From the human T2T-CHM13v2.0 reference genome, Homo sapiens, in assembly GCF_009914755.1 (NCBI RefSeq), contig NC_060947.1: 64,000 nucleotides of DNA. One strand, given 5' to 3'. A program made the translations under genes and the position numbers. Positions within the stretch are counted from its first letter, which is position 1; the number at the start of each line of letters is the position of its first letter. Positions 2,861 through 17,090 of the stretch are shown piece by piece. Below the pieces are notes generated by a model. That model did no database searches. It was not told the origin of the DNA and saw only the letters and a program-made list of their open reading frames with translations.

Positions 2861-3859
2861 GGTATATTGTTTTATATATATACTTATTTGCAATAAAAAC
2901 CAAAGGAATGCCAAGTACACAATTCAGGCTGGGGTTGCCTCTGGTGGAAGTGAAGGGATTCAGGAGGTTACAGTGAGGGGAGCTCAGAGGTAGATATACA
3001 GGTTTCTACTGATAGTCTAGTTATTGGATCGGGTAATAGGTAAATGGGGGCACATTGCATTTTAAAATAAACAAACAGGGCCTCGTATCAATCACGGGTA
3101 GCATGTTATGAAATAAGGATTATGATTAACTCAATTCTGTATTACCCAAGTCTCCTCCAAAAATCAAATGCTGCATTGACCTACTTGGACCTGGGCCTGA
3201 AATATTTGTTCTTCTCTCCTTCCAGGCTTCACACATGCTCCAGAAGCTCTTTGGTCAGGCCAGAAAGCATTTGAGTTCGACATCTCTGTATTTGTATCTA
3301 TTTGAGCAGGAGGCACTAGATCAGGGCTGCATGTCTTGCATCTGACACTGTTTAACCCAAAAGTTAGTTGGGACAGAAAGAATACCTCAGAATCCTGGAA
3401 TAAACGGGGTCCCGATGATCAATACGAGTTCTACTCAGCGAATGCAGATTACAGCAAACGGAAGAAAGAATGTCCAGACTTCTAAATGAAATGTTTCCCT
3501 ACAAAACAGTTTAGAATGAAGGTCTTCCAGAGGCCTTTTGCACAATTTCCTACTTAACTAGGAAATATTTCTCCTCTAAGTGCACAAAATCATGTTAGTG
3601 TATCGTGTTGGGTTTTATCACTGATTAATAAATATGTTACCCATTTATTATGAAGAACATGAGAAAGGATACAGACGAACAGCCAGATGAAAGAGATGCA
3701 TAGGGCACAGGTGCACCTCCCTCCAGGAACTTCCATGTGTTCAGCTATCTGGAAGCTCCCTTACCCCAGATTCTTAAAAATATAGAGCCCCGGGGCTCAA
3801 TTTCTGGTCTGATTCTTTTCTTTAACTACATTCTTGCCACAGCTGATGGAAGACCCTGG

Positions 3860-8100
<4,241 letters not shown>

Positions 8101-8132
8101 AAAAGTGGTGTAATTTCTGTCTCTGGAGTGGG

Positions 8133-8534
8133 TGTCGGGGGTGCACGGCAACATATTCAAGCTTATGTACAAGGCGTTTGAGGTCGGGGCATGGAAACAT
8201 ACTGAGGCACTGTGTGTATGTTATTTGTGCATGAGAATGAAACTCCTTGACCCTGAAAACAGGACGGGGAGTGGAGTGTGTGGTGTGATAAGGAACGCTG
8301 AAAACAGCCTCCCGAGAATGCGGTTTGAGTGCTTTTACCAGGCCACAGGTGTCTCATGACCCGACCTCAAAAAGGCCATCTAGTGGATGTTTGTGGTCTA
8401 ACAAGCCCTTTCAATGAATACTTGGCGGACAGATGCTGGGGCGGAGTCTCTTAGAAGAGCTGCCCCCGGCCCCCCTCAGCTGGATTTGTCTGAGAACTCA
8501 TTCTTGGCGTTCACTGCAAGCTATAAGCTCTGCA
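8133..8534 (+). mobile_element. 5' LTR
   Basis: TG...CA termini; direct repeat of 14123-14523; followed by PBS. Confidence 0.92.
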
Positions 8535-8536
8535 AG

Positions 8537-8554
8537 TGGTGACCCCGACGTGAT
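8537..8554 (+). other. Primer-binding site, tRNA-Trp type
   Basis: TGGTGACCCCGACGTGAT, complementary to the 3' 18 nt of tRNA-Trp, 2 nt after the LTR. Confidence 0.85.
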
Positions 8555-8677
8555 CGCCTTGAAGTTACGCGTGAAGGAGGAGAGCTCATTACTTTTCGGG
8601 GAATCCTGGTAAGGGACAGTCCTGACTCCCATCAGGAGGACGGGACCCATGCGTAAACTATCGCGGGTTGGGTTATC

Positions 8678-9165
8678 ATGGGTCAGGAAATGACCAAAGA
8701 ACAGAAAGTATTTTTTAAAACAGTGCAACAGCTACTTAAGGCTATCCAGTGCACTGTAGAGCCTGGAGCTCTACACAAGCTTATGCTTTTAATTTGGCAG
8801 AAATGCCCTTGGTTTCCTGATCAAGGAACCTTAGATTTAGGGTTATGAGAGCAGGTAGGTCGCTGCCTGAAAAGAGGATATGAGCAGGGTCATTTTACTA
8901 ATGTTACTATTTTGACCACCTGGGCGCTGGTACGCTCTGCGTTGTATCCTCTTTATCTGCCAGATCGTGGTTAGATCGCCCATTATCTCCACCTGAAAAG
9001 AATTCAGAAGATTTGAAGGGAGAGATTCCTCTCCCCACTTCATTCCCTTCTATGGGGAATAAGGAAGAGGTTTTTTTCTAGTGAGGACAAACAGGAACCA
9101 GAACAGTGGTTGGGGGGTGGGGGTGCTCCTCTCTCTACTTCATTCCCTTCTGTAGGGCATAAGGA

Positions 9166-9220
<55 letters not shown>

Positions 9221-9425
9221 TGAGGATAAGGACGGACGGGAGCCTTTTCCTCCCCCTGTAGAAAAGCCATTGCCCTTCTTTCCTCCACCCTTAAAAGGAC
9301 CTGCATTTGTTGGCCCTGTTCAGCCAACAGCGCCTTCCATCCCCCTTAAGGAGATTGGAGGCCGCCCAAGGGACGGCTCTTAGATAAGACCCCCGGTCAG
9401 CGAACATCTGTATGATCTGTATGAT
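8678..9425 (+). pseudogene. gag: gag N-terminal remnant (matrix and proline-rich region)
   Basis: MGQEMTKEQKVFFKTVQQLLKAIQ...CPWFPDQGTLDLGL*EQVGRCLK, a betaretroviral matrix signature; stop at 8846. Confidence 0.85.
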
Positions 9426-9427
9426 TG

Positions 9428-10864
9428 GGTGGCTGCGTCTCCTCGACTAACTTCCCTGCTGGAGGGGTGCGTCCAGGAGGGAAGGAAAGTGGCTGATTAT
9501 GATTGTCTTCCTAATATGCAAGTTCCCATTTGCTACTTCCAGCATCAGCCTTTCTGGCCTTGTCTTTTTTCTGTTTCACTGGAGTAAAAGGGGAAGTTGC
9601 ATGCTGCCTCCTGGGTTTTATCCCAGATAGCTCTAGCTTTCTTGCTGCCCACAGAGGCCTGGGGCAGGAGAGTTGCTGAGATGCCATGGAGTGCACACTT
9701 GGTCACTGGCAGCCTGGGCAGGTTGCCCCTTTCTGGGTTTGTGGTGACGGAGGGAAGGCCAAAAGGCACAGACCGAGTCCCCGGGTGGCTGCAGGCAGCT
9801 CCAGCCCAGTCCTGAGGATCCGCCTCACCATGGTCACGTGCCTTAGTAACTGTGCCCAGGAAGTGGCCTGCTGCTTGCCGTGCTGCTGCTTTTCCTACTT
9901 CTGCCCTTCCCTGCCACCCCTCACATGTCTCAGTTGACGAGCAATTCCTTGTCTTCCCTGGCCCCCTAGGGAAAGGGCTGAGAAATAGTCCATGTGCACC
10001 CGGACCTTACTAGCCTAAGGTGGGCAAAGGAGTGTGGAGCAGCCCGGAGTACAGAGCCCTGGAGGAGGAGCCCACTAATAAGGGGCGCTCTCCCATAGCC
10101 ATATATTAAATGCTAACTAGACTGAGGGGGACGAGCTCTGCCAGCTGCTGTCATCTTCAGAAGATAGACGCAGCAGTAAGGAGTGTTTGTTTTGCTTTTT
10201 TACAAAATGTTTAAAAACACTGTGGTTAAGAAACTTCAAAGCAGACCCTGTGCTGCATGTCTGCTCCTCCCCTGAGCCTCTCTGCTTGGGGGTGGTAAAA
10301 ATAATAAAAAGCCCAGTATATTTTCAGTACCTCACCTAACAGGGTTGGCTGCAGGCGTAGGTGGCCTAGAAGATAAGGGGAGTGTTTTTCTCCCAGCCTG
10401 TTACCTTCTTGCCTCCAGCCTCCGCACTTCCACACACAGTTTACCACCCGGTCATTCTCTGGCCTCTTACTGCCGCTTGTACTCTTCCTTCCTTCCTCTC
10501 AGGGTAAGGACAGCAACAAGTGGCAGGCTATTAAAAAGAGAAGCTGCCTAAGGGGCCCAGAACGAATAGAAAGAAACTGGCCACAGCCCTACTTTCCCAA
10601 GCTCACTTCTAAGACATTCCAGCTAAAGGCTGATGCAGGAAAATGGCTAACACCAAAGGACATTTTAAAAAGCTTTTTTTTGTTTTCTTTTCTTTTTAAC
10701 ACACTTAAGCTAACTCAATGCAGGTTTATTATCCTGGCGACTTGCAGTCACTTTCTAATGGCTTTCAAGGGCCAAAATATAGTAAAAATCACTTAAAATA
10801 TCCATCCTTTCCATGCCTTAGTTTAACAGGTAGGCTTTATCTTTTGCCATTTCGGTATTTTATA
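9428..10864 (+). other. Non-viral insert inside provirus (candidate captured cellular 3'UTR)
   Basis: No gag/pro/RT motifs recognised in any frame; UTR-like, AATAAA at 10303; occupies the CA-NC-pro-RT position. Confidence 0.7.
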
Positions 10865-12150
10865 TGTTATGTACCTGTCTCATAATCCCTCTAAACTTAT
10901 ACAAAAGACTACAGATATAATAGCTTCTCTTCTCATAAAAGGACGCCAACGTTGCGTCCAGCTGTCAGGATAAGACCCTGCTACTCTTTTCCTACCTTTA
11001 AGCAAGGAACAATTTCACACTCTCTTAGCTTGTGATCTTGATTGGCAAGTAGCAATGGCTGTCTTTATTGGTAATATCAGCTTTCATTTACCAGCCTCTA
11101 AGCTCCTGAACTTTTTACAAACTGTACCTGTTTAATTTGTATGTATTGTTGTCTCTGAGCCTTTACTTCATGCCACCACTGTCTTTACAGATGGTTAAAA
11201 AAAAACCCAAAAACTGAAAAAGCAGCTATAGTGTGGCAAGATGCCATGCAGAACTGGCAGTACAAAATCCAGGAGCATTTTAAAAACTATGCAACAGGCG
11301 GAATTAGGTGCCCTGATATTGGCCTTACAAACTTTTCCTCACCAAGACATAAATATCGTTGGTGATTCCGCTTATGTGGTGTATAGTATTACTCATTTAG
11401 ATCTTGCACATGTGAAGGGCATTACTAATAAACCCCTATTAGCTTTGTTTCTTGCAGCGCAAGAGCTCCTCTGTGCCTGTCATCACCCTCTTTACATCAC
11501 ACATATTCGCCGTCATTCTGGGCTACCTGGTCCTTATCAGAAGGGAATGCTTGAGCTGATGCTCTGGTACGACCACAGATGTGCTTTGCAAATTCTCCTG
11601 CTTTTTTGCAAGCTCAAGCTGATCATGTTGTTTTTTCATCGGAACGCCCGCCGTCTTAAACAACAGCTTCATTTGACACTTACTCAAGCTTGCATGATTA
11701 TTAAAACTTGTCCTAATTGCCAACAGCATTCTCTTTCCCCCTTTTCCTTAGGGCTTAGTGCCAACCTACGAGGTCTGGTGCCTAATGCTATCTGGCAAAC
11801 TAATGTCACTCGGTGTCCACCCTTTGGACGTTTTAAATTTCTCCATGTTACCGTGGACACATATACAGGCCTAATACATGCTACCTCCCAGACAGGAGAA
11901 AAAACTAAAGATGCAATCGCTCATTTGTTTAAATCTATGATAACTCTAAGCCTTCCACACACTATAAAAACTAATAATGGACCTTCCTATCTTAGCGCTC
12001 GATTTACATATGCATTGCAACTTTGGCACATGCAACATAAAACTGATATTCCTTATAACTCAACCAGTCAGGCCATTGTTAAACGAGCTCATCAAACTCT
12101 TAAAGTATATCTTAATTTAAAAAGGGCGGGGGGGAATATGGGGCTCTCTT
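10865..12150 (+). pseudogene. pol: pol remnant: RT connection, RNase H, integrase zinc-binding and core domains
   Basis: YLSHNPSK...DWQVA...TVFTDG; QQAELGAL; NIVGDSAYV; CPNCQ; WQTNVT; KTNNGP; IPYNSTSQAIVKRAHQTLK. Confidence 0.9.
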
Positions 12151-14122
12151 CTAGAGAACAGGACCAGTCGTTGGAGAACCAACCAACAATGATGGTGATG
12201 ACTCGGAAGGCACCTGACATCACCTGGGGACAGCTAAAGAAATTGAATCAACAAGCATCTATCCAGCTTGCCGCCGTGGAAGCCCCTGCAACTGCAGACA
12301 ATCGGTTTCTTACATATCTGGTGGCAATTGGGGAAACTTCTGAGAAAGTAAGACAGACATGGATGTTGGGGTGGCAGGTAATTCTTGTCCTTTGCTAAGT
12401 GGGATCAGCTTAAGGACACGTTTATTGGAGTCATGTTCTAAATCCCCCTGTTTTTAATGTTATTACATGGTGGGATGCTGACCCGCCTTTGTCATCTAAT
12501 GATACTTCTTGGGCAGGAGGCCGATGGATGCCTCTGTCTTACCCCGTAACTGAAAATTTGGGATGGATTCAACTTAATTACTCCTCGATTTTATTGTCTA
12601 GTAATCCCCCTCTTTGTTTTTCCACAATAGCACATGATAAGTGTGTTACTCTCATCCCTCAGGAGTATCTTTACTATCAGCCTAAAAGGGATGCTAAGCT
12701 TGCAAACTTGACCTTTATTTCTACTATTACCACTAATCTTACTGAGGTCTCTAATGAAGCTACACAAGTGCCTGATCTTCCTATATGCCGTCCGAGTAGG
12801 GACTGGCGATAAAAGTTTGAGGCCGTCCAGTGGTCGCCGTGCAGACAGCCTGCTCCACGTCAAGGGCCTCTGTTTGATAATGGCACCTTACTTGATTGGG
12901 GTCCCCGTGGTAATCTTATGTCTGCAAATCAGACTATTGGACTTGGGAGTCCCTCCAGTAGTCCTATTACCTAGTCAGAGTATGGGCTTTCAGGACCAGT
13001 ATTACAAGTGAGAGGGAAACAAGCTTTAAGCCCTGCTCATACCCAAATTTGGAGATTAGGATTTCCTTTTTTTGAACGGGTTCTTTCACATGGTGAGTAT
13101 ATTACTGGCGGTGGCAACCATACCCTCTCTTTGCATAATAATGTTACTGACACAGTCCTGATTTGTACCACGCACCCTTATATACTTTTGTTTGGGCAAG
13201 GTGTTCCTAACATAGAGCAGAATCAATCTTTTTATAGTATTAAAGTCTCTTCCAGTAGTTGGTATGCTGCATGCTTGTCCATCGAAACATTACACAGTTG
13301 GATATAACCTATGTCATGATCTTAAAATGGCGTGCAGAATTGTGGCTGCCTGTAAATTTAACCTGGAGCTGAAAAGGAGATTCCACCCTGCAGCTATTTA
13401 GAAAATCACTATCTCATACTCGGAAAAAAAAAAAAAAAAAAAGATTCCTGGCCACTTTAATTGCCTTTTTAGTCTCAGCTATTATTATATTAGCAACTGC
13501 TGCTACTGCAGCTGTTTCTCTGACAGAATCTATTCACACAGCCTCAGTGGTGAACCACATGGTGTATAATGTAACCCGTGAATTTCAAGAACAGGTAAAT
13601 ATAGATAAAACCATTCTGTCTCGCCCGGTCTCTTGAAGCCGCTGTTGAATAACTGGGGAATCAGCAGCAGGCATTCATTACCCATCAAAATTTACATTGT
13701 TGATTGGCAATATAATTCTATCTGTGTCACGCCTCTGCCATATAATAGCTCCCAATATGCTTGGGAGAGAGTGAAAGCACATCTGCAAGGGGCTTATCAC
13801 GACCATTTGTCTTCTCAAATTTCCATTCTTGAGTGTGAATTAAAGAAACACCTTGAAGAATGGTCGCAGCAATTACAAACAAGTATCCTTCAGCAATTAC
13901 AAGAAGGCTTTCAATGGTTAAACCCGAACACTTGGTTGTCTGGGTTAAACATACGCATTTGGGTGATGGCCGCTGTACTTATTCTTTTTTGTATCTGTTT
14001 GCTAGGCACTTGCAGATGGCTCTGTGCTGCCACCCGACGCATCTATGACCAGGGAAGAATCATGGAAGCTTACCTTGCATTGGATGACCAGCACGCTATA
14101 AGAATTAAAGAAGGGGGGAATA
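12138..14122 (+). pseudogene. env: env remnant (leader, SU, TM) with stops and frameshifts
   Basis: ITWGQLKKL leader; LWLPVNLT; basic cleavage site before FLATLIAFLVSAIII fusion peptide; DWQYNSICVTPLPYNSSQYAW. Confidence 0.88.
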
Positions 14123-14523
14123 TGGCGGGGTGCACGACAGCATATTCAAGCTTATGTACAAGGCGTTTGAGGTCGGGGCATGGAAACATACTGAGGCACT
14201 GTGTGTATGTTATTTGTGCATGAGAATGAAACTCCTTGACCCTGAAAACAGGACGGGGAGTGGAGTGTGTGGTGTGATAAGGAACGCTGAAAACAGCCTC
14301 CCGAGAATGCGGTTTGAGTGCTTTTACCAGGCCACAGGTGTCTCATGACCCGACCTCAAAAAGGCCATCTAGTGGATGTTTGTGGTCTAACAAGCCCTTT
14401 CAATGAATACTTGGCGGACAGATGCTGGGGCGGAGTCTCTTAGAAGAGCTGCCCCCGGCCCCCCTCAGCTGGATTTGTCTGAGAACTCATTCTTGGCGTT
14501 CACTGCAAGCTATAAGCTCTGCG
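14123..14523 (+). mobile_element. 3' LTR preceded by polypurine tract (14107-14120)
   Basis: AAAGAAGGGGGGAA followed by LTR copy; start uncertain by about 2 nt. Confidence 0.92.
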
Positions 14524-14769
14524 ATGGGCCCTGAAAAAAAAAAATCGATACTACGATGACTCTCATATGTATTTCTTCAGCCCAGATCCAGACCTTTGTC
14601 TACTCAGCTTCTCCACGTGGATACCTAATAGGCATCTCAAATTTAAATATCCAAAACCAAACTCCTGACATTAAACACAAGAAGCAAGAAATATGAACAT
14701 ATTTTCTGATTCCACTAATATAAAAGTACATAACAGTCAACACCAAACCATATTATTCTTATTTCTTGA

Positions 14770-17090
14770 ATTGAACTTTTATTTTAAGTTCAGAGGTACA
14801 TGTACAGGTTTGTTACATAGGTAAACTTGTGTCGTGGGGGTTTCTTGTAGAAATTGTTTCGTCACCCAGTGATTAAGCCTAGTACCCATTCGTTATTTTT
14901 CCTGCTCCTCTCCATCCTCCCACCCTCCACCGTCCAATAGGCCCCAGTGTGTGTTGTTCCCCTCTTTGTGTCCCCGTGTTCTCATGGTTTAGCTCCCACT
15001 TGTAAGTGGGAATATGCGATATTTGGTTTTCTGTTCCTGCATTAGTTTGCTAAGGATAATGGTCTCCAGATCCAACCATGTTCCTGCAAAGGACCTGATC
15101 TCATTCTTTTTTATGGCCGCATAGTATCCCGTGGTGTATATGTACCACATTTTCTTTATCCAGTCTACCATTGATGGGCATTTAGGTTGATTCCATGTCT
15201 TTGCTATTGTGAATAGTGCTGCAATGAATATACACGTGCACGTGTCTTGATAACAGAATGATTTATTATATTCCTTTGGGTATATGCTCAGCGATGAGAT
15301 TGCTGGGCCGAATGGTATTTCTGTCTTTAGGTCTTCGAGGAATCACCACACTGTCTTCCACAATGGTTAAACTAATTTACACTCTCACCAACAGTGTATA
15401 AGTGTTCCTTTTTCTCTGCAACCTTGCCAGTATCCATTATTTTTTTACTTTGTAGTAATAGCCATTCTGACTGGCGTGAGATGGTATCTCATTGTGGTTT
15501 TGATTTGCATTTCTCTAATGGTCAGTGATGTTGAGCTTTCTTTCACAGGATTGTTGGCCGCATGTACGTCTTGTTTTGAAAAGTGACTGTTCGTGTCCTT
15601 TGCCCACTTTTTAATGGGGTTGTTTGGTTTTTTCCTTGTAAACTTGTTTAAGTTCCTTATAGATGCTAGATATTAGACCTTTGTCAGATCCATAGTCTGC
15701 AAAAGTTTTCTCTTATTCTGTAGGTTGTCTGTTCACTCTGCTGGTAGTTTCCTTTAGTGTGCAGAGCTCTTTAGTTTAATTAGATCCCATTTGTCAATTT
15801 TTGCTTTTGTTGTAATTGCTCTTGGTGTCTTCGTCATGAAATCTTTGCCCATTCCTTATCCAGAAAATGATTGCCTGGGTTGCCTTTCAGGGATTTTATA
15901 GCTTGGGGTTTTACATTTAAGTCTTTAATCCATGTTGAGTTAACTTTTGTGTATGGTGTGATATAGTTTGGCTGTGTTCCCACCCAAATCTCCTCTTGAA
16001 CTGTAGCTCCCATAATCCCCACGTGTTGTGGGAGGGATCCGGTGGGCGGTAATTGAGTCACGGGGGTGGATTTTTCCTGTGCTGTTCTCATGATAGCGAA
16101 TAAGTCTCATGAGATCTCATGGTTTTATAAAGGGCAGTTCCCCTGCACATGCTGTCTTCCCTGTCGCCATGTAACGCACATCCTTTGCTCCTCCTTCGCC
16201 TTCTGCCATGATTGTGAGGCCTCCCAAGGCATGTGGAACTGTGAGTCCGTTAAACTTCTTTTCTTTATAAATTACCCAGTCTCGGGTATGTCTTTATTAG
16301 CAGCAAGAGAACGGACTAGTACCTGGTGTAAGAAAGGGGTTCAGTTTCAGTCTTCCATATATGGCTAGCCAGTTATCCCAGCACCGTTTGCTGAATAGGG
16401 AATCCTTTCCCCATTGCTTGCTTTCGTCAGGTTTGTCAAAGACCAGATAGTTGTAGGTGTGGGGCCTCATTTCTGGGTTCTCTATTGTGTTCCATTGGTC
16501 TCCATGTCTGTTTTTGTACCAGTACCATGCTGTTTTGGTTAGTGTAGGCTTGCGGTATAGTTTGAAGTCGGGTAGCGTGATGCCTCCAGCTTTGTTCTTT
16601 TTCACTTAGAATTGCCTTGGCCATTCAGACTCTTTTTCAGTTCCATATGAATTTTAAAATAGGTTTCCTCGTACTGTGAAGAATGCCAAAGGTAACTTAA
16701 TAGGAATCGCATTGAATCTGCAAATTGCTTTGGGCAGTATGGCCACTTTAATGATATTGATTCTTCCTATTCATGAGCAGAAATGTTTTTCCATTTGTTT
16801 GTCACGTCTCTGATTTCCTTGAGCAGTATTTTGTAGTTCTTCTTGTAGAGATCTTTCACCTCCCTGGTGTGGTGTATTCCTGGGTATCTTGGTGTGTGTA
16901 GCAATTATGAATGGGACTGTGTTCCCGATTTGGCTCTCTGCTTGACTGTTGTTGGTGTATACGAATGTTAGCGATTTTTCACATTGATTTGGTATCCTGA
17001 GACTTTGCTGAAGTTGATTATCAGCTTAAGGAGCTTTGGGGCTGAGACTGTGTGGTTTTCTAGATTTAGGAACATGTCGTCTGCAGGCAT
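14770..17090 (-). mobile_element. 5'-truncated L1 (L1PA/PB-type) with MST/THE1-type LTR inside at ~15958-16322
   Basis: [26 protein letters not shown]; L1 3'UTR. Confidence 0.85.

What the first reader, a model, noticed from the sequence alone, without database searches (positions are those of the whole stretch)
9428..10864. Provirus carrying a captured host mRNA-like segment in place of CA-NC-pro-RT
Seen: gag stops after a short ATCTGTATG duplication, ~1.4 kb of non-viral UTR-like sequence follows, and pol resumes in the RT connection domain. There is no polyA tail or TSD, and several kb of viral sequence are replaced. Established: this substitution layout matches template-switch capture in acutely transducing retroviruses rather than L1 insertion. 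Unverified recall: it resembles the LARP1 3'UTR. Inference: an LTR-driven lncRNA could present host UTR miRNA/RBP sites as a decoy, and the chimera may have spread as a family.
Basis: partly seen in the sequence, partly recalled or inferred. Interest (0 to 1): 0.85.

Follow-up and report, generated by a model that had tools for sequence, protein, structure and literature searches.

The report
ERV-Hako provirus carrying SUSD6 3'UTR
This is an old, broken retrovirus copy on the human X chromosome whose core genes were replaced by a piece of the untranslated tail of the host gene SUSD6; it is real, but it was already published in 2025.

Summary
Window 8133-14523 is a betaretrovirus-like provirus: 402/401-nt LTRs, a tRNA-Trp primer site, and gag p10, RNase H, integrase and env TM remnants. 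About 1.39 kb (9483-10872) stands where related copies carry 2.76 kb of CA-NC-dUTPase-PR-RT.

The insert's only non-proviral match in the genome is on chr14. It lies in sense orientation, downstream of the stop codon of SUSD6. It is not LARP1.

The same junctions recur at independent integration sites on chr1 and chr3, and the left one on chr2. A derived fragment lies on chr6, and chrX has an inverted twin copy. All three breakpoints sit in short microhomologies. There is no poly(A) tail or target-site duplication around the insert.

Versus SUSD6, 52 of the 87 differences shared by three copies are G>A on the plus strand (C>T: 9). This polarises the transfer from gene to virus and looks like APOBEC3 editing.

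All the essentials are in print: Frith 2025 (PMC11905727) named this ERV-Hako, described its SUSD6 3'-UTR variant and mentioned a chrX copy.

The decoy idea is not supported for the RefSeq LINC00891 model. That transcript starts in the 5' LTR but splices the SUSD6 piece out.

Verdict: real, correctly read in outline, already known.

The parts
8128..8132 (+). 5' copy of the putative 5-bp target-site duplication (4 of 5 match with 14524-14528)
   Evidence: Read. Other copies of the family have their own 5-6 bp duplications at different flanks.
8133..8534 (+). 5' LTR (402 nt, TG...CA). It contains the LINC00891 start at 8503.
   Evidence: Direct repeat with 14123-14523. A 382-nt run is identical between the two LTRs. 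The TSS comes from the hub's gene table.
8537..8554 (+). Primer binding site complementary to the 3' end of tRNA-Trp
   Evidence: A 15-nt core (8540-8554) was searched genome-wide and gave 10 exact matches. Five non-proviral ones were scanned; 4 of the 5 lie at the 3' end of an ARAGORN tRNA-Trp(CCA) gene on the opposite strand.
8503..8608 (+). LINC00891 exon 1 (R-U5-leader), ending at the proviral leader splice donor (GT at 8609-8610)
   Evidence: Gene table. The GT is kept in 10 of 11 family copies.
8679..9482 (+). gag remnant (MA/p10 and proline-rich part), broken by stops
   Evidence: Pfam Gag_p10, E 4.7e-10. Homology to long forms runs up to 9482.
9027..9218 (+). Approximately 100-nt tandem duplication in gag (9027-9077 / 9127-9177), with a 50-nt T-run at 9169-9218
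   Evidence: In this set, a T-run of this size is private to the two chrX copies.
9406..9423 (+). 9-bp tandem duplication ATCTGTATG x2, a later private event unrelated to the junction
   Evidence: Alignment. Present only in the window copy and its chrX twin: 2 of 8 copies checked.
9481..9482 (+). Left junction: 2 nt (GA) shared exactly by virus and SUSD6, within an imperfect 6-of-8 overlap
   Evidence: Alignment of 4 chimeric copies, 3 non-chimeric copies and chr14.
9483..10513 (+). SUSD6 3'-UTR block 1, sense orientation (chr14 63919417-63920443 in this assembly)
   Evidence: 91% identity.
10510..10513 (+). Internal breakpoint. 843 bp of the SUSD6 UTR are missing, at a 4-nt microhomology (GCAG in SUSD6). 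It is not a GT-AG intron.
   Evidence: Shared by the chrX, chr1 and chr3 copies.
10514..10872 (+). SUSD6 3'-UTR block 2 (chr14 63921287-63921695)
   Evidence: 77% by BLAST and 84.5% over ungapped columns. It holds 26 of the 52 shared G>A changes.
10873..10882 (+). Right junction: viral sequence resumes inside an imperfect 10-of-13 overlap with SUSD6
   Evidence: Alignment.
10873..12154 (+). pol remnant: RT connection region, RNase H (about 11274-11528), integrase Zn (about 11631-11726) and integrase core (about 11781-12062)
   Evidence: Pfam. In the long form L015 the RVT thumb ends about 180 nt before the equivalent of 10872.
12155..12377 (+). LINC00891 exon 2 = start of env (ATG at 12189). 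Its acceptor AG at 12153-12154 is private to the chrX copies.
   Evidence: the other 6 copies covered at this site read CG, TG or CT; the twin is identical here.
12189..14100 (+). env remnant (SU and TM), broken by stops
   Evidence: Pfam GP41, E 1.9e-13, in 13609-14100. ORF list.
14006..14740 (+). LINC00891 exon 3: end of env, the whole 3' LTR and 217 nt of flank
   Evidence: Gene table. AG at 14004-14005.
14107..14122 (+). Polypurine tract
   Evidence: Read. It lies directly before the 3' LTR.
14123..14523 (+). 3' LTR (401 nt)
14524..14528 (+). 3' copy of the putative target-site duplication

Best explanation
The window holds a copy of ERV-Hako, a low-copy betaretrovirus-like (group II) primate endogenous retrovirus primed by tRNA-Trp. 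It belongs to the subtype in which CA, NC, dUTPase, protease and most of RT are replaced by two pieces of the SUSD6 3' UTR joined head to tail.

Shown:
- The host segment is in sense orientation.
- It has three breakpoints (virus|UTR, UTR|UTR with 843 bp skipped, UTR|virus). Each lies in a short microhomology.
- All three breakpoints are identical in copies at independent integration sites, so the chimera arose once and was then copied.
- The host segment carries a strong plus-strand G>A excess relative to SUSD6.

Inferred:
- The chimera was made by non-homologous copy-choice jumps of reverse transcriptase during minus-strand synthesis, between a viral genome and a co-packaged or read-through SUSD6 transcript.
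- Because it lacks capsid, protease and polymerase, it spread only with proteins from a replication-competent helper Hako.
- It was edited by APOBEC3-type deaminases on the way.

Today the chrX copy is a dead relic. Its 5' LTR drives LINC00891, which uses the proviral leader donor and splices the SUSD6 piece out.
For: - Provirus anatomy.
- tRNA-Trp primer site.
- Long-form relatives carry CA-NC-dUTPase-PR-RT in place of the insert.
- In the genome search with the insert, all 8 of 8 first-look candidates were scored. The only non-proviral match is chr14.
- That chr14 locus is the SUSD6 last exon. The upstream open frame hits SUSD6 proteins (82 hits; best named ones at E 3.2e-82 and below). A splice acceptor, a short final coding piece and the stop lie 760 nt before the match.
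- Identical junctions are seen on chr1 and chr3, and the left junction on chr2. Each locus has its own flanks and its own 5-6 bp duplication.
- The chr6 fragment has the proviral base at 33 of 34 shared derived sites.
- G>A accounts for 52 of 87 differences shared by three copies, against 9 C>T (binomial p 1.8e-8). By context: GA 20/67, GG 20/121, GC 8/104, GT 4/68. Differences private to one copy are symmetric, for example chrX with 6 G>A and 4 C>T.
- A second, independent host insert in another Hako (L020, matching chr2:228.46 Mb) shows G>A in 33 of 93 differences against 7 C>T.
- Frith 2025, PMC11905727 (abstract, sections 6 and 13 and Table 1 read) reports ERV-Hako with a 401-nt LTR, a Trp primer, 5-6 bp duplications and a SUSD6 3'-UTR insert in copies on chr1, chr3 and X.
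Against: The step 'template switching inside a virion' is not shown directly. The same junctions could come from microhomology-mediated DNA repair.

The G>A excess is confined to the host insert. On the stem of the chimeric clade, the flanking viral gag, pol and env show G>A at only 5-9% of informative G sites, about equal to C>T in three of four comparisons, against 14.4% in the insert. A single hypermutated reverse-transcription round over the whole genome does not predict this.

The captured segment lies within one exon, so loss of introns, the classic proof of an RNA intermediate, cannot be tested. The 843-bp gap is not a canonical intron.

The poly(A) site of SUSD6 was not determined here. 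That both blocks lie in the 3' UTR rests on the paper and on an ATTAAA about 1.1 kb further downstream.
Confidence: 0.88

Rival explanations
1. DNA-level origin. A single-stranded SUSD6 cDNA or DNA fragment, already deaminated, was patched into a broken proviral or pre-integration DNA by microhomology-mediated end joining. The resulting defective provirus was later transcribed and mobilised by a helper.
For: All three breakpoints have only 2-4 nt of exact microhomology, which end joining also produces. The G>A excess is restricted to the insert and is absent from the viral flanks. This reading explains that directly.
Against: Copy-choice jumps by reverse transcriptase give the same junction type and are the established route for retroviral capture of host sequence (textbook knowledge, not tested here). 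The family did it at least twice, with SUSD6 and with a second host insert (named SPHKAP in PMC11905727). That fits a virion-linked process. Recombination with helper genomes, or depletion of editing motifs in viral sequence, can also explain the clean flanks.
Confidence: 0.1
2. A later L1-mediated insertion of a processed SUSD6 fragment into an already deleted provirus.
For: None found.
Against: There is no poly(A) tail and no target-site duplication at the insert ends. The viral break points are 2.76 kb apart in long forms. The same junctions occur at independent loci, each with its own LTR pair and duplication, which an insertion into one genomic copy cannot give.
Confidence: 0.01
3. Reverse direction: the SUSD6 3' UTR took up a fragment of the virus.
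For: Sequence similarity alone has no direction.
Against: chr14 has no LTR or other viral sequence around the match. It holds 843 extra bp between the two blocks. Long-form Hako copies lack the segment. The strand-asymmetric G>A pattern (52 against 9 C>T and 5 A>G) is what reverse transcription under deaminase pressure does to the copy, not to the source.
Confidence: 0.01
4. One reading: the LTR-driven lncRNA displays SUSD6 UTR sites as a decoy for microRNAs or RNA-binding proteins.
For: The 5' LTR does drive an annotated transcript (gene table; splice sites checked). An unspliced proviral RNA would contain the segment.
Against: In the single RefSeq model the segment lies in intron 1 (8609-12154). 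It has diverged from SUSD6 by about 9% in block 1 and 15% in block 2, with no sign of constraint: private changes look neutral. No expression or CLIP data could be examined here. The 36 papers that mention LINC00891 were seen only as a listing of 15, and none of those ties it to SUSD6.
Confidence: 0.04

Closest known systems
ERV-Hako, SUSD6-insert subtype (Frith 2025, Mobile DNA 16:11, PMC11905727)
   Same: LTR length (402/401 nt here, 401 in the paper's Table 1), tRNA-Trp primer site, group II protein remnants, 5-6 bp duplications, a SUSD6 3'-UTR insert and a copy on chrX named in the text. My census of about 13-15 interior loci fits the paper's 16.
   Different: Nothing essential. Not found in the paper's main text by word search: junction microhomology, the G>A (APOBEC-type) bias, partial copies on chr2 and chr6, and the link to LINC00891. 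Its supplements could not be opened and may cover some of these points.
Acutely transducing retroviruses (v-onc capture, such as the v-src and v-myc viruses; recalled, not tested)
   Same: Host sequence in sense orientation replaces viral replication genes. The junctions are non-homologous or microhomologous. The product is replication-defective and helper-dependent.
   Different: Only non-coding 3'-UTR sequence was taken. No host open reading frame is carried, so there is no oncogene. The chimera became endogenous and multiplied in the germ line.
RecKoRV, the defective recombinant koala retrovirus (named in the discussion of PMC11905727; otherwise recalled)
   Same: A defective recombinant in which foreign sequence replaces the core genes, amplified in trans and outnumbering or outliving the intact virus in some lineages.
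   Different: In RecKoRV the foreign part is another repeat element, not a host gene UTR (recalled).
Rec/Rem-type doubly spliced betaretroviral mRNAs (HERV-K HML-2 Rec, MMTV Rem; recalled)
   Same: LINC00891 joins the leader, the first 63 codons of env, and the end of env plus the LTR. This gives a 94-codon open frame.
   Different: The exon-2 acceptor AG is a change private to the chrX copies, so this splice pattern is not simply the virus's own. No arginine-rich motif is evident in the frame. No function was tested.

Membership tests
ERV-Hako (Frith 2025) | LTR of about 401 nt with TG...CA ends | tested here: met
   LTRs are 8133-8534 (402 nt) and 14123-14523 (401 nt; the last base differs). 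The paper's Table 1 gives 401.
ERV-Hako (Frith 2025) | Primer binding site for tRNA-Trp | tested here: met
   The core of 8537-8554 equals the reverse complement of the 3' end of tRNA-Trp(CCA) genes at 4 of 5 non-proviral genomic matches scanned.
ERV-Hako (Frith 2025) | Group II (betaretrovirus-like) proteins | tested here: met
   Gag_p10 in the window; dUTPase between gag and RT in the long form L015; RNase_H, rve and GP41.
ERV-Hako (Frith 2025) | Target-site duplication of 5-6 bp | tested here: met
   chr2 CAAAA, chr11 TAAAG, chr8 TTACTC, chr3 4 of 5, chrX 4 of 5 (GTGGG/ATGGG).
ERV-Hako (Frith 2025) | SUSD6 3'-UTR insert subtype, with a copy on chrX | tested here: met
   The genome search found such an insert on chrX only at this locus and its inverted twin.
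Acutely transducing retrovirus | Host sequence replaces viral genes, in sense orientation | tested here: met
Acutely transducing retrovirus | Captured sequence derives from spliced mRNA (introns absent) | not testable with these tools
   Both blocks lie in one exon. The 843-bp gap has no GT-AG ends.
Acutely transducing retrovirus | Captured host coding sequence is expressed (oncogene) | tested here: not met
   The segment starts 760 nt after the SUSD6 stop codon. The two long frames scanned inside it have no Pfam match (2 of 2).
L1-mediated processed pseudogene | Poly(A) tail and flanking target-site duplication | tested here: not met
   Junction alignments.
   All 8 genomic candidates were scored and none is on chr5. 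LARP1's position on chr5 is recalled, not from a call. The only non-proviral match is chr14, in SUSD6.

The most novel reading that the evidence does not exclude
The host-derived inserts of ERV-Hako record ancient APOBEC3 editing, and the unedited original still sits in the genome for comparison. Two independent captures (SUSD6, and the insert the paper calls SPHKAP) both show a strong plus-strand G>A excess, with GA context above GG. The flanking viral sequence of the same genomes does not. If this is real, one of two things follows. Either the viral parts were kept clean by recombination with helper genomes or by long-standing depletion of editing motifs, or the host pieces were deaminated as free cDNA before being joined in. 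Either way it would give a directly measurable editing rate and motif preference for a simian retrovirus about 30-40 million years old.
Probability: 0.55. Interest if true: 0.45.

Novelty: already known. Interest (0 to 1): 0.3.

Why it matters
Capture of host sequence by a retrovirus that then became endogenous and multiplied is rare in the human genome. It shows that a defective, helper-dependent chimera can out-multiply its intact parent, and that host DNA can travel with a virus.

All of this was reported in 2025, so the present value is confirmation plus detail:
- exact junctions with microhomology;
- a polarity test (G>A) that proves the gene-to-virus direction;
- two further partial copies, on chr2 and chr6;
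- the observation that LINC00891, which the cancer papers listed by title and abstract treat as an ordinary lncRNA, is an LTR-driven spliced transcript of this provirus that does not contain the SUSD6 piece.

Tried and rejected
Its copy lists and supplementary figures (S1-S6) were not seen and may already list the chr2 and chr6 fragments or the junction details.
- Pfam on the SUSD6 exon frame gave no family. The gene was named through the protein search instead.
- LARP1 as parent was rejected.
- A canonical intron as the cause of the 843-bp gap was rejected.
- The 50-nt T-run as an antisense poly(A) tail was rejected. It has viral gag on both sides and is private to chrX.
- Whole-genome hypermutation of the chimeric progenitor was tested on gag, pol and env flanks and not found.
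- The double splice of LINC00891 as a purely native viral pattern was rejected for the exon-2 acceptor. Conservation of the other three splice dinucleotides is no more than expected at 85-90% identity.
- No structure prediction, RNA family search or complex prediction was run. None bears on the question.

Full report
**What is at the site.** Window 8133-14523 (+) is a provirus. Two direct repeats of about 400 nt, at 8133-8534 and 14123-14523, bound it. They begin TG, and the 5' one ends CA.

Two bases after the 5' LTR lies an 18-nt primer binding site (8537-8554). Its 15-nt core occurs 10 times in the genome. Five non-proviral matches were scanned, and 4 of the 5 are the 3' end of a tRNA-Trp(CCA) gene read on the other strand.

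Pfam finds Gag_p10 in 8657-8848. It finds RNase_H, Integrase_Zn and rve in 11232-12398, and GP41 in 13609-14100. All frames are broken by stops. A polypurine tract (14107-14122) precedes the 3' LTR. The flanks read GTGGG and ATGGG, a 4-of-5 target-site duplication.

**The observation.** Genome searches with the gag part and with the pol-env part found about 13-15 related loci. Three of them (L015 chr8:79.07 Mb, L016 chr19:24.10 Mb, L017 chr12:70.42 Mb) carry 2764 bp between the points equivalent to window 9482 and 10872. In L015 this stretch holds Gag_p24_C, CxxC knuckle motifs, dUTPase, RVT_1 and RVT_thumb.

The window has 1390 bp of unrelated sequence there.

Two details need correction. Viral gag homology continues 59 nt past the ATCTGTATG duplication to 9482, so the left junction is 9482|9483. 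The duplication (9406-9423) and a 50-nt T-run in gag (9169-9218) are private to the two chrX copies, so both are later events. The right junction is 10872|10873.

**The parent.** The insert was searched against the whole assembly, and 8 of 8 first-look candidates were scored. Matches fall on the window, on an inverted twin at chrX:70.2125-70.2187 Mb (100%), on chr1:86.34 Mb (92%), chr3:188.38 Mb (91%), chr2:183.26 Mb (two short pieces), chr6:33.18 Mb (660 bp, 94%) and chr14:63.92 Mb.

Only chr14 has no viral sequence around it. There the match is in two blocks, at 91% and 77%, separated by 843 bp.

About 2.6 kb upstream on the same strand, an open frame (L009:6812-7303) hits 82 proteins. The named ones are 'sushi domain-containing protein 6' from many vertebrates, with E down to 3.2e-82. 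A splice acceptor, a short last coding piece and the stop codon follow at L009:~9120-9146. I located this piece with a 5-residue motif that I recalled.

The match starts about 770 nt after that stop, in sense orientation. The parent is therefore the SUSD6 3' UTR, not LARP1.

**One origin, many copies.** Alignments of both junctions and of the internal break show the same three breakpoints in the chrX, chr1 and chr3 copies, and the same left junction in the chr2 copy.
- Left junction: virus and SUSD6 share GA exactly, and 6 of 8 positions.
- Internal break: GCAG is shared.
- Right junction: 10 of 13 positions are shared.

The chr2 copy has a further deletion with a small inversion. The chr3 copy has a roughly 9-kb foreign element inserted 4 nt past the right junction, with its own short duplication. 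The chr6 fragment carries the proviral base at 33 of the 34 shared derived sites it covers, so it descends from the chimera and not from SUSD6 directly.

Each locus has its own flanks and its own 5-6 bp duplication. These are independent integrations, apart from the chrX pair. That pair shows 0 mismatches and 2 gaps over 7.9 kb and belongs to an inverted segmental duplication.

Two other loci (chr11:60.71 Mb and chr8:29.59 Mb) share a different 2.1-kb deletion. So several defective lineages of this family multiplied.

**Direction and mechanism.** Across 1.39 kb, 87 positions differ between SUSD6 and all three full chimeric copies. Of these, 52 are G in SUSD6 and A in the proviruses. C>T accounts for 9, A>G for 5 and T>C for 5 (binomial p 1.8e-8 for G>A against C>T).

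By context the changed fraction is GA 20/67, GG 20/121, GC 8/104 and GT 4/68. Only 5 of the 52 involve CpG. Both blocks show the bias: block 1 has 26 G>A against 7 C>T, and block 2 has 26 against 2. This explains the lower identity of block 2.

Differences private to one copy are symmetric: chrX 6 G>A and 4 C>T, chr1 8 and 10, chr3 10 and 6.

Plus-strand G>A with a GA/GG preference is the known mark of APOBEC3 deamination of minus-strand cDNA (established knowledge, not tested here). It fixes the direction as gene to virus and shows passage through reverse transcription.

A second host insert gives the same picture. It lies in another Hako (L020 3691-4546), matches chr2:228.46 Mb in sense, and is the one the paper calls SPHKAP. 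It shows 33 G>A among 93 differences against 7 C>T, with 21 of the 33 in GA context.

**A result that does not fit simply.** On the stem of the chimeric clade, the viral flanks are not G>A-biased in three of four comparisons:
- pol, two long-form outgroups: 7/117 G>A against 12/193 C>T;
- gag: 7/79 against 5/61;
- env: 6/124 against 5/109;
- pol, deleted-form plus long-form outgroups: 5/105 against 1/171.

The insert shows 52/360. Fisher p against the insert is 0.004-0.015 for pol and env, and 0.21 for gag.

Possible reasons, all inferred, are three. Helper recombination may have refreshed the homologous flanks. Viral sequence is already G-poor (19.5% G in pol-env against 27.2% in the SUSD6 blocks) and may be depleted of good target sites. 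Or the host cDNA may have been deaminated before it was joined in. The last would favour a DNA-repair origin of the chimera. I cannot separate these here.

**The transcript.** The single RefSeq LINC00891 model (NR_034005.1, from the hub's table) starts at 8503 in the 5' LTR. It uses the leader donor at 8609 (GT in 10 of 11 family copies) and joins to 12155-12377, which is the start of env. It then joins to 14006-14740, which is the end of env, the 3' LTR and 217 nt of flank.

The SUSD6 piece lies in intron 1. So the decoy idea has no support from the annotated RNA.

The exon-2 acceptor AG is private to the chrX copies. The other 6 copies covered at this site read CG, TG or CT. The spliced RNA has a 94-codon frame beginning at the env ATG. 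Its significance is unknown.

**In print.** A full-text search for 'SUSD6' with 'endogenous retrovirus' found Frith 2025, Mobile DNA 16:11, PMC11905727. I read its abstract, sections 6 and 13 and Table 1, and ran word searches on the main text. It names ERV-Hako:
- group II, LTR 401 nt, interior 7085 nt;
- tRNA-Trp primer, the only such human ERV according to the paper;
- duplications of 5-6 bp, about 47 LTRs and 16 interiors.

The paper shows a chr1 copy with a SUSD6 3'-UTR insert. It states that Hakos on chromosomes 3 and X have the insert too. It reports a SPHKAP variant and the same SUSD6 insert in a platyrrhine relative, HakoP. The finding is therefore already known.

The main text holds none of the words APOBEC, hypermutation, microhomology, template, splice, LINC00891 or 'chromosome 2'. 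Its supplements could not be opened.

'ERV-Hako' occurs in no other work of the library. No paper there holds both 'LINC00891' and 'retrovirus'.

**Verdict.** The gene name, the left boundary and the functional speculation are wrong. Novelty: already known. The added details (junctions, G>A polarity, extra partial copies, the LINC00891 link) are modest increments.

Noticed in passing
window 8133-8534 vs 14123-14523: The two LTRs of the chrX copy are identical over a run of 382 nt and differ only in the first ~20 nt and the last base. LTR pairs of 8 other family copies are 88-95% alike. Gene conversion between the LTRs is the likely cause. LTR divergence would grossly under-date this copy.
   Followed up: partly
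window 7200-15100 vs G000:C23:70211500-70219500 (L026, minus): An inverted twin of the whole provirus and its flanks lies about 80 kb away. It shows 0 mismatches and 2 gaps over 7.9 kb. It coincides with the place the gene table gives for the lncRNA LOC100132741, which is thus the paralogue of LINC00891.
   Followed up: partly
window 12153-12154: The AG acceptor of LINC00891 exon 2 is private to the chrX copies. Six other family copies read CG, TG or CT there. A single base change in the relic therefore appears to have created the exon.
   Followed up: partly
window 12189-12377 joined to 14006 onward (spliced LINC00891): The spliced RNA carries a 94-codon open frame that starts at the env ATG and crosses the exon 2-3 junction. 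Its layout resembles Rec/Rem mRNAs of betaretroviruses (the resemblance is recalled). No arginine-rich motif was seen.
   Followed up: no
L020 (G000:C1:160040500-160050400) 3691-4546: Another family copy carries 856 bp that match a single non-proviral locus at chr2:228.46 Mb at 87%, in sense. This is presumably the SPHKAP 3'-UTR variant of the paper. It too is G>A-biased. A high-copy repeat of about 390 bp is inserted just upstream.
   Followed up: partly
L012 6375 onward and L021 up to 5650 (chr3:188.378-188.3876 Mb): A foreign element of about 9.2 kb, with TG...CA ends and a short duplication, is inserted in the chr3 copy 4 nt from the right junction. It is probably another provirus and was not identified.
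   Followed up: no
L018 (chr11:60.71 Mb) and L019 (chr8:29.59 Mb): Two copies share a 2.1-kb deletion from NC to the RT connection region (L015 3099 to 5198), a second defective lineage that was copied. The chr11 copy may be the one the paper links to the MS4A15 start site. That link was not checked here.
   Followed up: no
L024 3434-4017 and L014 4605-5263 (chr6:33.167 and 33.178 Mb): A 5' LTR with leader and a 660-bp piece of the SUSD6 insert lie 10.5 kb apart on the same strand, with no pol or env between them. This is a badly disrupted chimeric copy. What separates the pieces was not examined.
   Followed up: no
window 9027-9177: There is a roughly 100-nt tandem duplication in the proline-rich part of gag (84% between units). 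Long forms appear to have one unit. Whether the duplication marks the chimeric clade was not settled.
   Followed up: no
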